DNA of 64,000 bases from Octopus vulgaris (GCA_951406725.2 OX597837.1:43586001-43650000), one strand, 5' to 3'; positions 2,372 to 63,061 are shown, numbered from the stretch's first letter. Numbers and translations are program-made. The notes: generated from the sequence alone by a model not told the origin.

Positions 2372-2417
<46 letters not shown>

Positions 2418-2871
2418 TCTATATACTTATGTATGAGCGTGAGTATATTTGTGTGCTAGTGTGTTTATGCTAGGTTCATCTCGTTCATTCCATTTTATCG
2501 ACTGTAAAGAAGAATTCACTCTTGGTGAAGTTATTTGGTTAAAGAGCTTTGAAATTTCTCTTTTTATCTTCTGTCTTTACATACACATACACACACACTC
2601 ATGCATACACTCACGCACACACAAAGAAACATACAACGCACTTACAAATACAACTCAGACCTACATATAACATATACATATACAGTAATGCTTATGCCAA
2701 CACATACACACGGATATATATATATGTGTGTGTATGTGTGTGTGAATACGTGGTTTTTGAGGTGATCGAAGAAAATGGAACTTCCTGTGAGGTGTTGGTA
2801 TCTATGCATGTGTTTAAGAAATATCTTCGGAATTAGAATCAATATCAACAGAGGTTCGATAGATGGAAGCC

Positions 2872-3122
2872 CCTCCGTCAGTTACAACGACGACTGCTCC
2901 AGCAGATTCGATCAATCGAAGAGGATGCTCGAGAAATTAATGTGAAAGTGAATAAGTATTTCACAGACACGCGTACCTTTAACGTAATTCTCTGGAAGAG
3001 TCCGCATCGTGACAAAATATACAAGGCCAGCCCTTTGAATTACGGGTAGAACTCACTTTTGCCAGCTGAATGGACAGGAGAAACGTGAAATAAAGTGTCT
3101 TGCTCAAGGACACAACGCGCCA
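2872..3122 (-). mobile_element. Degenerate SINE, family D (Nin-like tail)
   Basis: Similar to 16445-16626, 32365-32469 and 42951-43259 (caaggccagccctttgaa; cacagacacgcgtacc; gaaattaatgtg). Confidence 0.65.
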
Positions 3123-3249
3123 CTAAGTTCCTGGACTAGTTCTTTGGCGCGCTAACAGATGGCAGCACAAAGTTGCGTGCGCAGTGAGTGTTAGCAGTGT
3201 GCTTCAAGAGACAGATGAACATATATATATGTATATATGTGTATATATG

Positions 3250-3283
<34 letters not shown>

Positions 3284-3289
3284 TGTATG

Positions 3290-3332
<43 letters not shown>

Positions 3333-3403
3333 TATATATCTACCTTCTCTATAATGTTGCCACTTGATATGAAAATTTTTATATTAATGGAAAACCTCTA
3401 TAA

Positions 3404-3489
3404 TTGGCTGATGAGTACTCGGCAATTTAAATCTGTTGTAATACTTACAACATTTAATAAAATGATGTAGTACGAAACGATTGTACCAA
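3404..3489 (+). ncRNA. Type I hammerhead ribozyme motif
   Basis: Stem I TTGG/CCAA; core CTGATGA (3408-3414); stem II GTACT...AGTAC with an inner TGTTGTAA/TTACAACA hairpin; GAAAC (3474-3478)-GATT-GTA cleavage triplet (3483-3485). Confidence 0.85.
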
Positions 3490-3629
3490 ATAACCGGAGT
3501 CATTCTTGTTGCTTATTTTGATTATAATCACCCCGCAGATTTCTATGGATAACACCATACAGAATTCTGGTGCATCTAAATTAAGTACCTATATTCATTT
3601 GAATCTAAATTTTTGCTGAACTTATATAT

Positions 3630-3669
<40 letters not shown>

Positions 3670-3672
<3 letters not shown>

Positions 3673-3795
3673 GACCTTTCAGTTTTCGCCTACCAAATTC
3701 ACCCACAAGGCGTTGGTGGGCACGAGGTTATAGTAGAAGACAACCATGTGGTTGGGAAGCAAGCTCCTTAACACATAGCCACGCCTTCGCCTGTG
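3670..3795 (-). mobile_element. SINE family B, 5' fragment
   Basis: ttcagttttcgcctaccaaattcacccacaagg...accatgtggttgggaagcaagc matches the full copies at 32.6 and 40.0 kb. Confidence 0.75.
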
Positions 3796-4019
3796 ACTAA
3801 TTATGAACAAACCGCCCTGTATCATACATCGAAATGTAGATAACTGAATCTATCTTAAAGAAATAAACAGGCTATATTTGTTAGACTACTACACACAACA
3901 CAGTCTTCCTCTCTTGAAAAAAGAATTCGAGCACCATGTGTGCCTTATATTCTGTCTAAAGTCAGCGCAGCATAAGATTCGCTTCAGCCTGACTGACGAT
4001 AAACTTGGTGTCGTTGCGT

Positions 4020-4330
4020 GAAATCGTCTGTTGTCTTCTTGCAAAACTTTTTGATTTACATGTTGTTTGAAGAGTTCGGAGGTAATTTCTTCACGCGTCC
4101 TAAGAGAAACACAGTGAAGAGAATGTACCCAACGTATTGGGAAAAATTCAATGATCCATAGAAAGTTCACACAATCATTTTATTCCATTCCTGCTGTAGA
4201 AGTCCGAACAGATCACCATTCGATCTAATTCATTACGTCCAATTTATATGTTCACCGTTTTCATCAATGACAGCTCGTTTATCTCTTTTCTAAATAATGA
4301 TGTCAGCAGATACACACGTGATGTCATTGC
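4020..4330 (+). pseudogene. Possible highly decayed LINE reverse-transcriptase fragment (CR1/L2-like)
   Basis: LAKLFD-like word at about 4040-4056, then MFTVFIND...NNDVSRY about 195 nt later. This spacing matches KAFD to LFxIFIND in CR1-type RT. Stops and frameshifts are present. Confidence 0.3.
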
Positions 4331-29267: not shown

Positions 29268-29311
<44 letters not shown>

Positions 29312-29335
29312 ATGTGTGTGTGTGTATGTATATAT

Positions 29336-29382
<47 letters not shown>

Positions 29383-43706: not shown

Positions 43707-44035
43707 AATGTATATACTTATACATATGTACATGTCTGTGCTCGTATGGCTACGTGCTATTACGTAAGATGGCTTGCTTGCGTATTTGCGTAGTTGACAA
43801 AATGTCGAAAGACCTCCTTTGAAGCGCAGATGAATGCATCGAAGTTATAATATTCTAAAACGGCAATTTCACTGACGCTTGTCAAATTTTTCAATATCGA
43901 GGTAGAAATGTCAACTCTGAAGATATTCAGCCTTGGAAATGTCGCAGTGTTTAAGATGACATTTCAATCCCAGTCGACTGCGTCAAGAGATGGCCAACCC
44001 ACACATGCACATCATACGCGTATGTATATGCATAA

Positions 44036-44093
<58 letters not shown>

Positions 44094-44284
44094 CCAATGT
44101 AGTTAGTTCGAAAATCTCTATAAAAATGTAAGTAGTAACAATACCTAAACGTAATGTTTGTTGCTACATCAACATGGCTGTTCCGTACGGGACTACGTTA
44201 CGACCATTTTCTTAACCCCAGGAAGATATCTCATCCAGCTGGCTAACGACACATCCCGTGTCTCATATATAGAGGTGACAATAC

Positions 44285-44329
44285 CAGTATACTAGTTTAG
44301 TTTCAGGTTATTTCCCTTCGTCAGTACTG
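44285..44329 (-). ncRNA. Type I hammerhead ribozyme motif (all three stems fully paired)
   Basis: Minus strand CAGTA-CTGACGA-AGG-GAAATAA-CCT-GAAA-CTA-AAC-TAG-TA-TACTG, with a GUA triplet. Confidence 0.9.
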
Positions 44330-44439
44330 AACAGCTGACTGCTAGACATGGGAGTCGTTTGTCCTTGCTCGCAATTTGAAGAAAAATACGTGACATTCAT
44401 ATACATATGTCTCTTCTAGTTTTTAATTATTATAATTAT

Positions 44440-44800
44440 TATAAATCTTCCACTGAGGAAGGAACCGGTTTCCAACAAAGATACAGGGCTTCATCTTTGA
44501 GATGTAGTTAACGCAGACATATTCACATTTGGTACTTGAGAAAAGTCTTGCATATTTTTACTGTTCCACTCACAGATTGCACTTTTAATGTATAAAGTAA
44601 CCGGTCAATTTCTCTTTCTGAAAATCCCAATTTATCTAGATTCTCCTTTATGCATTTACTAACAAAACCTAGTGCTCCAATTATCATTGGTATGAATATG
44701 AATTCACAGTCTGGATATAGAAGCTGAAGGTTTCGAAGCTGTTGTCCATAGATATCCTCTTTTTGTTTGAAAGACATAAAAATCTTGTACGTGGACTCAA
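44440..44800 (-). pseudogene. R4/Dong-like LINE 3' end (restriction-like endonuclease C-terminus and 3' UTR)
   Basis: KQKEDIYGQQLRNLQLLYP...FIPMIIGALGFVSK...SVSGTVKICKTFL, then a short UTR and an AAT-rich tail. Confidence 0.78.
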
Positions 44801-45194
44801 TGTAGAAAGCAAGTCCTATTTGTAATCTCGGGGGGACCAAAAGCGTAACAAATATTTATCCACATATGGACATAAACCCAAAAGTTCAGTTCTTGAATTC
44901 AGACATGTAGCAGGGTCTAAGCTGCTTTCCAGATGAGCTATCTTTCCATATCACAAAGACCGCACTTTCCACTGCCATTGGTGTAAGGCTTACACTTGGC
45001 TAAGATCTTCCAATGGATGTTATAACTGACACCTTTATCTTTTAAGGACCATATATGACTAGATAATTGGGTCGTTTTCCTTTTATTCCAATGCCTGAAT
45101 TAGAAACTTTGATCTTATAATGATGACTCCAACTCCCTAACCACTTAGTCACGCGCCTACACACACATACACACACACAATGCACACGCATCTG

Positions 45195-45232
<38 letters not shown>

Positions 45233-46339
45233 CACACATATACATATATGCGTATGTGTGTGTGAGTGTGTGTGTGTGCGCACTTTGCTAATACGGGAAA
45301 TCGCAGCTGCTGCCTTCCACCGTCACGACAGCTACGGTGACCGCCATGTCTACTGGCGACATGACATTTACTAGCAACACTCCCGTCGTTGTCGTCATCA
45401 TCATCATCATCGTCATCATCATCATCATCAACATCATCATCATCACCATCATCATCATCATTCGCCCACATCACCTTCACCACCACCAAAGTAATTATTA
45501 TAGTCATCTCAGTATTCTTATCTCTCTCTGTATCTTTCCGCCATTGCCTTCTCCCCTCTCTCTGTCTCACTTCACTCTCTCTCTCTTTCCCTCTCTCTCT
45601 CTCCCTCTCTCTCTCGTTTTTCTCACGCACACACACTCACACACTTTCTCTCTTTCTCTCCTTCACTCATTTATTTCCTCTTTCCGTCTACAAACTGTTT
45701 TCTCCTCCAATATCTGTATCTGTTTTTTTCTTTCTAATTATTCACATAATTATATCTTGATTTCATTTTACTTTCATAGTTATTTTTATATTTCCTTAAT
45801 TAGATATTTTGTTTTACAGTTTTTTTTCCTGGCTTATATATGTATATATCTATTTCTGAATTTGTATTTTCTTTTTCTCTTGTTATTTCTTTACGCATTT
45901 GTCGTGCAATTTACGGCACTTGTCACTCGCCGAAGCCGCGTAACCAGATTCGCTTTCATTGCACGCATATTTCAGCGCAAAGATAAATCTTACTTTGTTA
46001 TAAAAATAAACAAGCTATAATGACAGATGCCGTTAAATAGAAAGTTCAGTTTCGCTCACACGCACTCATACACACATACATGCACCCACATGTAACTATA
46101 GGGAAGAAATGCACACATTCACAAACACACACACACACACGCACACACACACAAACACACATACACAAACAAACACAGCGTACAAACACGGAAACATTTT
46201 CTGACGCCGTAACCGGATAGATGAGGCAATTATATCATGCGTTCATATAATGATGTAATACTTGGCTTTTTGGCTGAGAGCATCGCATCTGAACATCGTT
46301 AATTCGGTTTCAATCTCACTGCGTGGAGGCACACGAAAA

Positions 46340-48369: not shown

Positions 48370-48402
<33 letters not shown>

Positions 48403-48736
48403 TGTATGTATGTATATGTATATGTATGCATGTATGTATGTATGTAGTCAATTGTCTCACCTGCAGAATTGTTTCAATTGTATATCTCACAGGTATACTT
48501 TCATGGACAATAAATATAGAAGTGGAGAATAAAATGAAACGAAACAGATGAATGAATAATTCATAGAATTTAAAATATTCGAAAGTTCTAACAGAAAATA
48601 TATTATGAATGCGACAAATTGAGAAATATGACTGGAAGGTGGAGCTGTCAAGGAAACGTGTTGTGGTGTTTTTTTAAGACAACTATATTCTTCCCAGATA
48701 CGTATATGTGAGGTGCGCTTATATATACACACATAC

Positions 48737-62600: not shown

Positions 62601-62653
62601 ATTATATATATATACATACACACACACGCACGCACACACGCGCACACACACAC

Positions 62654-62723
<70 letters not shown>

Positions 62724-63061
62724 GTGTGTGCGTGTGTGCATGCGTGTGTGTGTATGTACATATATATATAATTATAATAAGGGCATAGAAAGAAACCAAT
62801 GCTGAGAAAAAGGCGCTAAATCGTATCACCACTCAAGAAGTCACAAACACGTGTTGAATTCGAAACAACAAGCCAACGGTAATTACTGTTAAAACAGATA
62901 GCCCTGTATCAGCTAACTTCCGGACCTGCCCAATAGTGTTTCTGCCTTCAGCAGGACATACATAGAGAATAAATGAAATATTTATACATACCCACAGGAA
63001 AGCAAAGTTCAAAGCCGCAAATACACGTAAATACCCCAGTTATCTTGGAAAAAATTTCGTA

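What the first reader, a model, noticed from the sequence alone, without database searches (positions are those of the whole stretch)
44285..44445. Compact, fully paired HHR about 115 bp downstream of an R4/Dong-like LINE 3' end on the same strand
Seen: a 45 nt HHR with 5 bp stem I, 3 bp stem II, 4 bp stem III and a GUA site; the best candidate for activity. Known: ribozymes described for RLE-type LINEs are mainly 5' HDV-like, so a 3' HHR would be unusual. More likely the LINE sits beside a separate HHR unit that ends at (TA)n near 44090.
Basis: partly seen in the sequence, partly recalled or inferred. Interest (0 to 1): 0.72.

Follow-up and report, generated by a model that had tools for sequence, protein, structure and literature searches.

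The report
Decayed hammerhead retrozyme beside unrelated LINE
The hammerhead ribozyme motif is really there, but it sits in an old, worn copy of a small non-coding jumping repeat that lies next to an unrelated LINE fragment inside one simple-sequence tract, so it is most likely an ordinary fossil and not a LINE ribozyme.

Summary
The 45-nt type I hammerhead (HHR) motif is confirmed on the minus strand at 44329-44285. It has stems of 5, 3 and 4 bp, a GUA site and predicted cleavage after A44290. Zero of 300 shuffled windows give an equal motif.

It is not part of the LINE. The LINE family ends at about 44405 in an (ACAT)n-type tail. The HHR lies in a second repeat family, at 44399-44091, that ends in (TA)n. 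LINE-HHR adjacency does not recur: 0 of 14 and 0 of 21 LINE loci, and 0 of 36 unit loci on the same strand.

The HHR family has a unit of about 355 nt, is non-coding and has 40% GC. It is old (copies 72-88% alike), often 5'-truncated, partly tandem and often in head-to-head pairs at simple repeats. This fits animal non-LTR retrozymes and Penelope-type insertion (PMC7229834, PMC8557442).

The window copy is a single truncated arm about 11% from the family majority, with one HHR. I read it as a fossil.

Caveats: no Rfam hammerhead match, A10.1-U11.1 in place of G-C, no covariation above shuffles, and cleavage untested.

Earlier notes of this scan report younger retrozyme families elsewhere in this genome.

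The parts
44285..44329 (-). 45-nt type I hammerhead motif: stem I 5 bp (6 with the U.G at 44330/44284), stem II 3 bp, stem III 4 bp; predicted cleavage after A44290
   Evidence: Sequence read. My motif scan found this as the only hit in the window. 0 of 300 shuffles match it. It is the minimum-energy fold of a 49-nt excerpt. Core intact and 13 of 14 pairs kept.
44277..44339 (-). Extended hammerhead including a distal stem I helix (44339-44334 with 44282-44277) beyond a UGU/U internal loop. This helix is ancestral to the family and keeps only 4 of 6 pairs in the window copy
   Evidence: Alignment A1. The helix is 87.3% paired over 33 copies.
44091..44399 (-). One 5'-truncated copy (a single arm) of a non-coding HHR repeat family with a unit of about 355 nt. 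It is 88.8% identical to the family majority and lacks about 30 nt just 3' of the ribozyme (near 44270)
   Evidence: GC is 39.8%. No stop-free frame of 80 aa or more lies inside it. No tRNA gene found.
44040..44090 (.). (TA)n tract that directly abuts the repeat's 3' end ('end A', ...CTACATTGGTT)
   Evidence: Sister copies end at the same point against (TA)n, (TC)n, (CA)n and (ACAT)n.
44405..44770 (-). Strongly 5'-truncated 3' fragment (366 bp) of an abundant RLE-type LINE: the last ~80 codons plus the 3' UTR
   Evidence: 88.5% identity to L048 over 366 nt. Translation. CCHC and RPDIVV..IEV..K endonuclease motifs seen in sister copies. More than 27,000 first-look candidates.
44396..44404 (-). 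Short degenerate ACAT-type tail of the LINE fragment, joined directly to the HHR repeat
   Evidence: 14 of 14 sister LINE ends continue ...TAGAAGAGAC into ACAT-type repeats.
44770..45099 (-). Third, unrelated interspersed repeat (~330 bp, ~90% identical copies) abutting the 5' end of the LINE fragment
   Evidence: 39 other matches, all spanning query 62-391.
45153..45280 (.). Compound (CA)n(TA)n simple repeat. It resembles the tract at 43997-44090, so the three-element block sits inside one simple-sequence tract
   Evidence: direct-repeat family D1, 61-74% identity; sequence.

Best explanation
The hammerhead motif at 44329-44285 lies in a single, 5'-truncated copy, about 11% diverged, of a ~355-nt non-coding repeat family that is separate from the neighbouring LINE fragment. 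This family is likely a hammerhead retrozyme that was probably copied into simple-sequence tracts by Penelope-type reverse transcriptases.

Shown directly:
- The motif, the two repeat families and their junction.
- The absence of any recurrent LINE-HHR linkage.
- The family's unit length, age, 5' truncations, partial tandems and head-to-head arm pairs.
- Two preferred 3' ends about 57 nt apart, and frequent simple-repeat flanks.

Inferred from the published retrozyme model (PMC7229834): multimeric transcripts of master copies would cut themselves at the hammerhead into unit-length RNAs. These would be circularised by a host RNA ligase, reverse-transcribed by an enzyme supplied in trans, and inserted.

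Also inferred: the enzyme was of the Penelope type. This rests on the architecture of the insertions only; no partner element was found.

For the window copy itself: it has one ribozyme, less than one unit and no sister ribozyme nearby. At most it could cut a read-through transcript in two and could not release a unit-length RNA. I read it as a dead insertion that shares a microsatellite with a LINE fragment and a third repeat.
For: Motif. All 11 conserved core nucleotides, H17 = A and three helices in type I order are present. 0 of 300 shuffled windows match.

Separate families. The 46 non-self matches to 44520-44100 cover either query 2-126 (LINE) or 122-421 (HHR unit), never both. LINE homology ends at 44405 and the unit spans 44399-44095.

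No linkage. 14 of 14 sister LINE ends lack the unit. 0 of 21 LINE loci hold it. 1 of 36 unit loci holds a LINE end, on the opposite strand 630 nt away.

The motif is ancestral to the family. 88% of helix cells are paired across 33 copies, against 25-43% when the partners are slid. The catalytic core is intact in 13 of 33 copies. The exact pattern occurs 17 times in the genome against 0 for the reversed control; 6 of the 17 belong to this family.

Retrozyme-like family. The unit is about 353-360 nt with head-to-tail junctions. GC is 40%. There were 2102 first-look candidates; the 40 scored are 72-88% identical to the query.

Penelope-type footprint. In 29 loci there are 43 arms: 20 end at 'A', 15 at 'B' about 57 nt upstream, and 8 elsewhere. 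All 12 loci with adjacent opposed arms are head-to-head, and 6 of them pair one A end with one B end. 17 of 43 outer flanks are simple repeats. These traits (5' truncation, partial tandems, an inverted 5'-truncated neighbour, an extra tail at one end, microsatellite bias) are listed for PLEs in PMC8557442 (passages read).

Penelope endonucleases are abundant here: 6136 first-look GIY-YIG candidates, many with 781-aa open frames.

Shared target. The three-element block is flanked by similar compound (CA)n(TA)n tracts.
Against: - No Rfam hammerhead model matches the window copy at gathering score or at E <= 10 in 401 nt. None matches the fully intact sister L014 either. RF00163 finds only CUGAnGAG...CGAAAC-type motifs elsewhere in this genome.
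- The 10.1-11.1 pair is A-U in the whole family. PMC4209133 (passage) calls G10.1-C11.1 highly conserved.
- There is no covariation above shuffled controls: 88.3% paired against 88.4%, and 3 double changes against 2.8 expected. The window's stem III U-A 'compensation' is a single event.
- The fold is weak: -5.5 kcal/mol, and a 56-nt excerpt has z = 0.30 and a different minimum-energy fold.
- No sequence similarity was found between the unit and 30 GIY-YIG loci, so no autonomous partner is identified.
- The two ends lie 57 nt apart, while the PLE 'tail' in PMC8557442 is 30-40 bp.
- 5' truncation and simple-repeat flanks would also fit LINE-type copying.
- The window copy has one arm only and is not tandem.
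Confidence: 0.8

Rival explanations
1. The hammerhead is a 3' processing ribozyme of the LINE, or part of a LINE-HHR composite element mobilised as one unit.
For: Same strand and direct abutment: the LINE tail ends at about 44396 and the unit starts at 44399. A contig of run X2 spans the same junction, so the arrangement is not an assembly error.
Against: None of the 46 non-self matches spans both parts. 0 of 14 sister LINE 3' ends and 0 of 21 LINE loci carry the unit, and 0 of 36 unit loci have the LINE upstream on the same strand. The LINE family has its own (ACAT)n tail ahead of the junction.
Confidence: 0.03
2. The HHR repeat is a SINE-like passenger of a LINE (target-primed reverse transcription by an RLE-type or other LINE), not of a Penelope-like element.
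For: 5'-truncated copies, 3' ends that abut simple repeats, and an extremely abundant microsatellite-tailed LINE in the same genome. No Penelope element with a matching end was found.
Against: All 12 adjacent two-armed loci are head-to-head, and 6 of them pair the two fixed ends A and B. Partial tandems cross the unit junction. PMC8557442 says these structures are not seen with LINE-type priming (passage). The unit's 3' end shows no visible likeness to the LINE's 3' end (by eye only). No tRNA-like head was found.
Confidence: 0.15
3. The motif is a chance look-alike, or a hammerhead-shaped relic that never cleaved. The repeat would then be an ordinary non-coding interspersed or satellite repeat.
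For: No Rfam hammerhead hit, even for intact copies. A-U at 10.1-11.1. No covariation above shuffles. Weak predicted stability.
Against: 0 of 300 shuffles produce the motif. The full core plus four helices, including a distal stem I behind an internal loop, are ancestral to a family with thousands of fragments. A subfamily only ~62% identical elsewhere (L046, L047) keeps the core, and L047 keeps all 14 pairs. The exact pattern occurs 17 times against 0 in the reversed control. The dispersed one-to-two-unit insertions on many contigs do not look like a satellite.
Confidence: 0.05

Closest known systems
Metazoan non-LTR retrozymes (Cervera and de la Pena 2020, PMC7229834; abstract and passages read)
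   Same: Short non-coding repeats within the 170-400 nt range. One type I hammerhead per unit. Low GC (<50%). Head-to-tail copies. No LTR, PBS or PPT. Non-autonomous, and co-resident with Penelope-like elements.
   Different: The family here is old and mostly dispersed as one or two partial units, not long arrays. The hammerhead has A10.1-U11.1 and a 4-5 bp stem III, and Rfam does not recognise it. Circular or linear RNAs were not observable. The window copy is less than one unit. No paper in the searched library describes such elements in cephalopods. I did not verify the organism.
Penelope-like elements: pLTR hammerheads and insertion architecture (PMC4209133, PMC8557442; passages read) and the preprint calling animal retrozymes non-autonomous PLE derivatives (bioRxiv 10.64898/2026.07.22.740005; abstract and a term search read)
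   Same: 5' truncation. Partial tandems. An inverted 5'-truncated copy head-to-head. An extra stretch at one end only. Preference for microsatellites such as (TA)n. A type I hammerhead in the repeated part.
   Different: There is no reverse transcriptase or GIY-YIG frame in or beside the unit. No sequence similarity to the 30 GIY-YIG loci sampled. The two ends lie about 57 nt apart, against a 30-40 bp tail. PLE min-HHRs have almost no stem III and keep G10.1-C11.1. The preprint covers vertebrates only.
Classical satellite hammerheads of newts and schistosomes (named in PMC7229834 and PMC4209133; their sequences are recalled, not checked)
   Same: Type I topology, about 6-bp helix I, 4-bp helix II with an A-rich loop, and a near-palindromic stem III that could pair between two copies.
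   Different: Those have G10.1-C11.1 and a 1-2 bp stem III, and they occur in long arrays. Here stem III is 4-5 bp and the copies are dispersed.
HDV-like ribozymes at the 5' ends of R2 and other RLE-type LINEs (recalled knowledge, no call)
   Same: A self-cleaving RNA next to an RLE-type LINE on the same strand.
   Different: A different ribozyme class and a different end of the element. Here the ribozyme belongs to another repeat, and the adjacency does not recur.

Membership tests
Hammerhead ribozyme, type I | Conserved core C3 U4 G5 A6 N7 G8 A9 / G12 A13 A14 / A15.1-U16.1, and H17 not G | tested here: met
   CUGACGA, GAA, A-U and A17 are read directly. The core is intact in 13 of 33 family copies.
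Hammerhead ribozyme, type I | Three helices around the core, with stem I open and stems II and III closed by loops | tested here: met
   Stems of 5-6, 3 and 4 bp in the window. 88% of helix cells are paired over 33 copies, against 25-43% when slid.
Hammerhead ribozyme, type I | G10.1-C11.1 pair, called highly conserved in canonical hammerheads (PMC4209133 passage) | tested here: not met
   The pair is A-U in 25 of 33 copies, the window included, and never G-C.
Hammerhead ribozyme, type I | Match to a curated covariance model (Rfam hammerhead families) | tested here: not met
   No hit at gathering score. None at E <= 10 on 401 nt. None on the intact sister L014. RF00163 does find other motifs in this genome.
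Hammerhead ribozyme, type I | Compensatory changes that maintain the helices | tested here: inconclusive
   Observed values equal the shuffled controls. This is expected for neutrally decaying dead copies.
Hammerhead ribozyme, type I | Site-specific self-cleavage | not testable with these tools
   Needs in vitro transcription. No RNA run was usable.
Metazoan non-LTR retrozyme | Non-coding unit of about 170-400 nt with one type I hammerhead and low GC | tested here: met
   Unit of about 353-360 nt. GC 40%; the longest open frame in a head-to-tail dimer is 98 aa, not searched for homologues.
Metazoan non-LTR retrozyme | Head-to-tail (tandem) copies, so that two ribozymes can release a unit | tested here: met
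   Met for the family: junction-spanning arms in L056, L057, L059, L060, L067, L070, L073 and others. Not met for the window copy, which is a single arm of 309 bp with the only hammerhead in 64 kb.
Metazoan non-LTR retrozyme | Expression as linear and circular unit-length RNA | not testable with these tools
   No RNA holder was listed. Contigs cannot show RNA ends.
Penelope-type (PLE) mobilisation | 5' truncation, partial tandems and an adjacent inverted 5'-truncated copy | tested here: met
   29 loci hold 43 arms. All 12 adjacent two-armed loci are head-to-head. The traits are as listed in PMC8557442.
Penelope-type (PLE) mobilisation | [quoted passage not shown] | tested here: inconclusive
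   Two preferred 3' ends about 57 nt apart (20 A, 15 B, 8 other), with A+B paired in 6 of 12 two-armed loci. The published tail is 30-40 bp.
Penelope-type (PLE) mobilisation | Sequence shared with an autonomous RT/GIY-YIG element | tested here: not met
   No BLAST match between the unit and 30 GIY-YIG loci with 1.5-kb flanks. This is a small sample of 6136 first-look candidates.
LINE-borne ribozyme (LINE with its own 3' hammerhead) | The ribozyme recurs at a fixed place in other copies of the LINE | tested here: not met
   0 of 14, 0 of 21 and 0 of 36. No match spans both parts.
RLE-type LINE (R2/R4/Dong group) | C-terminal CCHC motif and a PD..(D/E)xK restriction-like endonuclease after the RT | tested here: met
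   C..C...H....C, RPDIVV, IEV and K motifs in the frames of L048 and L049, and RT motif FVDDLK. The motif definitions are recalled. Pfam gave no hit on the C-terminal pieces. The clade (R4 or Dong) was not tested.

The most novel reading that the evidence does not exclude
An A10.1-U11.1 hammerhead variant that Rfam does not recognise powered an ancient retrozyme lineage in this animal genome. Its head-to-head insertions, with two fixed 3' ends about 57 nt apart, record a Penelope-type enzyme priming twice on one, probably circular, RNA at a broken microsatellite. The same mechanism would then have been at work here long before the young retrozyme families noted elsewhere in this genome.
Probability: 0.3. 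Interest if true: 0.55.

Novelty: new member of a known kind. Interest (0 to 1): 0.3.

Why it matters
For the finding as posed, a LINE with a 3' hammerhead, the answer is negative, and this removes a false lead. What remains is a worn copy of a hammerhead-bearing non-coding retroelement of a known kind.

At the family level two points have some value. First, the hammerhead variant (A-U at 10.1-11.1, longer stem III) escapes the curated models, so Rfam-based censuses of animal genomes would undercount such ribozymes. Second, an old family shows the same head-to-head, two-end insertion pattern that the literature ascribes to Penelope-like elements. That adds an independent data set to the open question of which enzyme copies animal retrozymes. 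Neither point depends on this locus, which is most likely inert.

Tried and rejected
- Rfam on the whole window at gathering score gave 0 hits. At E <= 10 the listed hits (best 150 of 484) were microRNA-like matches, nearly all on TA/TG simple repeats and all below gathering score, which I take as artefacts. A four-locus Rfam search showed no hammerhead among the 150 rows listed; 40 lower-scoring rows were not shown.
I used my own scan script instead.
- RNA evidence: no RNA holder was listed. Contigs of four runs laid on 43950-44900 show only that this locus exists at low depth in two runs. They say nothing on transcripts or cleavage ends.
- Partner search: BLAST of the unit against 30 GIY-YIG loci found nothing, and a hammerhead scan of those loci gave two unrelated weak motifs. 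Nine loci of a second HHR family had no RT or endonuclease frames within 1.5 kb; their long open frames looked like translated simple repeats (by eye, not searched).
- Single-event test for arm pairs: within-locus arm identity is about 0.81 (my mean of 21 of the 22 pairs printed, leaving out the 100% L082 pair) against 0.787 between loci. The difference is too small to use in an old family.
- Pfam on the LINE C-terminal pieces gave no family. A 660-aa 'open frame' turned out to be a translated (ACAT)n array.
- ARAGORN found no tRNA-like head.
- Literature: the search with min_terms 2 listed only cephalopod papers without 'retrozyme' and was uninformative. Papers found for G10.1/C11.1 gave no rate data for an A-U pair.
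- The idea that the LINE targets a fixed spot of the retrozyme, as earlier notes report for Tx1 elements in this genome, was rejected for this LINE.

Full report
**Observation.** On the minus strand the window reads UCAGUA-CUGACGA-AGG-GAAAUAA-CCU-GAA-ACUA-AAC-UAGU-A-UACUGG from 44330 to 44284. This is a type I hammerhead. My own scan found it to be the only such motif among 38 CUGANGA cores on both strands of the window. None of 300 dinucleotide-preserving shuffles of the window gave a motif with stems of at least 5/3/4 bp. The fold is weak. It is the minimum-energy structure of a 49-nt excerpt at only -5.5 kcal/mol. A 56-nt excerpt prefers another fold and is no more stable than its shuffles (z = 0.30). 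No Rfam hammerhead family matched, either at gathering score on the window or at E <= 10 on 401 nt around the motif.

**Two repeat families meet at about 44400.** The window lies in a 2.8-Gb assembly of 227 contigs. Earlier notes of this scan call the organism a cephalopod; I did not verify that. A search of that genome with 44520-44100 (minus strand) gave 46 non-self matches in two classes: query 2 to 95-126, and query 122-339 to 360-421. None spanned both.

The first class is the 3' end of a very abundant LINE, with more than 27,000 first-look candidates. In the window this LINE is only a 366-bp 3' fragment, 44770-44405, 88.5% identical to a sister copy. All 14 other 3' ends examined continue from ...TAGAAGAGAC into ACAT-type repeats of variable length and then into unrelated DNA. 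One truncated copy sits inside a long (ACAT)n array. Sister copies show a CCHC motif followed by RPDIVV...IEV...K after the reverse transcriptase. By my recalled definition this marks a restriction-like endonuclease. The 'RLE-type' label therefore holds, but the R4/Dong clade was not tested, and Pfam gave nothing on these pieces. The LINE thus ends about 65-75 bp upstream of the ribozyme, not 115 bp.

**The hammerhead belongs to the second family.** Aligned copies define a unit of about 353-360 nt that begins TGTTGCAAAATCAGC... and ends ...CTACTTTGCT. Head-to-tail junctions are visible in several loci. The window copy runs from 44399 to 44091. It lacks roughly the first 20 nt of the unit and about 30 nt just 3' of the ribozyme, and it ends at the family's usual 3' end against (TA)n. 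A search with the copy closest to the family majority gave 2102 first-look candidates. The 40 scored gave 68 matches at 72-88% identity, with no young copies. Sixteen aligned copies are 65-92% identical to their majority, and the window copy is at 88.8%. The unit has 40% GC, and no stop-free frame of 80 aa or more lies inside the window copy. No tRNA gene was found.

**Is the hammerhead a family feature?** Across 33 distinct copies, 88% of the cells of the 14 core-proximal pairs are standard pairs, against 25-43% when the 3' partners are slid by 1-3 columns. A further 6-bp distal stem I helix beyond a UGU/U internal loop is 87% paired. This gives the ancestral motif the extended shape of natural type I hammerheads. 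In the window copy that distal helix keeps only 4 of 6 pairs.

The catalytic core is intact in 13 of 33 copies. Only 3 of 33 have both an intact core and all 14 pairs. The window copy has an intact core and 13 of 14 pairs. The most frequent core defect in the alignment is G8 to A within CUGACGA (8 of the 20 broken cores). I read this as CpG decay, which is an inference. There is no covariation above shuffled controls: 88.3% paired against 88.4%, and 3 double changes against 2.8. The window's C-G to U-A change in stem III is therefore a single event and no evidence of selection. That is what neutral decay of dead copies predicts. A diverged subfamily (L046, L047; about 62% identical elsewhere) keeps the core, and L047 keeps all 14 pairs. 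This hints at constraint on master copies.

**Caveats on membership.** The 10.1-11.1 pair is A-U throughout the family. PMC4209133 (passage read) calls G10.1-C11.1 highly conserved. Rfam does not recognise even the fully intact sister L014. The Hammerhead_1 model does find six motifs elsewhere in this genome, all with G at position 10.1 (CUGAnGAG/CUGAnGUG) and ...CGAAA. The papers I could find gave no rate data for an A-U pair at this position. Cleavage is therefore untested.

**No LINE-HHR association.** Besides, BLAST found the HHR unit in 0 of 21 LINE loci. It found the LINE 3' end in 1 of 36 distinct unit loci (117 kb in all), on the opposite strand and 630 nt away.

The adjacency has a simple explanation. 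The block made of a third ~330-bp repeat (45099-44770; 39 other matches at about 90%), the LINE fragment and the HHR unit is flanked on both sides by similar compound (CA)n(TA)n tracts. The LINE family ends in, and inserts into, ACAT-type repeats. Half of the HHR family's canonical ends abut simple repeats. The order of insertion at this locus cannot be told.

**How the family spread.** In 29 loci I counted 43 arms. Twenty end at the unit's 3' end 'A', fifteen end at a second point 'B' about 57 nt upstream (...GCAACAAACATTAC), and eight end elsewhere. All 12 loci with adjacent opposed arms are head-to-head, with the 5' truncated ends facing each other. Six of these pair one A end with one B end. 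Arms often run across a unit junction. Seventeen of 43 outer flanks are simple repeats.

PMC8557442 (passages read) lists these traits for Penelope-like elements: strong 5' truncation, partial tandems, an adjacent inverted 5'-truncated copy, an extra 30-40-bp tail at one end, and a bias for microsatellites such as (TA)n. It states that such structures are not seen with LINE-type priming. PMC7229834 (abstract and passages) defines animal non-LTR retrozymes as non-autonomous repeats of about 170-400 nt, low in GC, with type I hammerheads. [quoted passage not shown] A 2026 preprint argues the same for vertebrates (abstract and a term search).

GIY-YIG endonuclease frames are abundant here: 6136 first-look candidates, many scored matches with identical scores, and many 781-aa open frames. 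However, 30 sampled loci share no sequence with the unit. The partner is therefore unknown, and the Penelope step remains an inference from architecture; I give it about 0.55. Within-locus arms are only slightly more alike than arms of different loci (about 0.81, my mean of 21 of the 22 pairs printed, leaving out the 100% L082 pair, against 0.787). This is uninformative for an old family.

**What the window copy can do.** It has one ribozyme, less than one unit, no second hammerhead within 64 kb, a weakened stem II and a weakened distal stem I. If it were transcribed by read-through it would at most cut that RNA once. It cannot release a unit-length RNA. No RNA run was available. Contigs show only that the locus, including the LINE/unit junction, exists in two runs, one of them with the 30 nt that the window copy lacks.

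**Comparison and novelty.** This is a new, old member of a known kind, the animal non-LTR retrozymes, lying by chance beside an RLE-type LINE fragment. In the searched library no paper joins 'retrozyme' with cephalopods except a PLE paper that mentions both in passing. Searches for 'hammerhead ribozyme' with octopus, and for hammerhead and ribozyme with squid, found only a count of 235 Rfam hammerhead hits in the giant squid genome. Supplements of these papers were not read. Earlier notes of this scan already report young 359-362-nt and 492-nt retrozymes with Penelope-type two-armed insertions on other DNA of this genome. My by-sequence look-up found no note on this family. I tested the two-end, head-to-head pattern independently on this older family.

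**Verdict.** The locus itself is ordinary. Interest is 0.3.

Noticed in passing
L031, L034, L035, L036, L038, L040, L042, L043, L044 (hammerhead at about 1501 of each): A second hammerhead family shares stem II (AGGG...CCCU, also A10.1-U11.1). Its stem III is the minimal palindrome ACUAGU and its stem I is UCCAGA/UCUGGA, the dimer-type shape described for Penelope-like elements. Nine exact-pattern copies were found. No RT or endonuclease frame lies within 1.5 kb, and simple repeats are nearby.
   Followed up: partly
window 44770-45099 (minus strand): A third interspersed repeat of about 330 bp with sharp ends. The 39 other matches scored are about 90% identical. It abuts the 5' end of the LINE fragment. 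Its class was not determined.
   Followed up: partly
window 43997-44090 and 45153-45280: Similar compound (CA)n(TA)n tracts flank the block of three retroelement fragments. It looks as if one microsatellite served as a repeated landing site.
   Followed up: partly
window 44270 (run X2, contig record 9): A contig of a public run spans 44102-44459 with about 4% differences. At 44270 it carries a 30-nt insertion that equals the piece the window copy lacks relative to its family. This would be an allele or a close relative's version of the same locus.
   Followed up: no
L054 about 3034-4300; L026, L027, L028: The RLE-type LINE family ends in (ACAT)n, and truncated copies sit inside long (ACAT)n arrays. 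This suggests a microsatellite-specific LINE with tens of thousands of copies.
   Followed up: partly
G000, many contigs, e.g. L091, L096: Many of the 148 scored GIY-YIG endonuclease matches have identical scores and 781-aa open frames. This points to a young, possibly active Penelope-like family in this genome.
   Followed up: no
L082 1501-1807 (minus) and 2410-2485 (plus): Two inverted stretches of the HHR repeat about 600 nt apart are 100% identical over 75 aligned positions in an otherwise old copy. This may be a recent local inverted duplication or gene conversion.
   Followed up: no
window-wide, e.g. 62624-62747, 29296-29366, 48382-48450: The best of the 484 sub-threshold Rfam hits at E <= 10 are 'microRNA' matches (mir-297, mir-5014, mir-1277 and others). 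Those aligned or inspected lie on TA/TG simple repeats. I take them as artefacts of low-complexity hairpins.
   Followed up: yes
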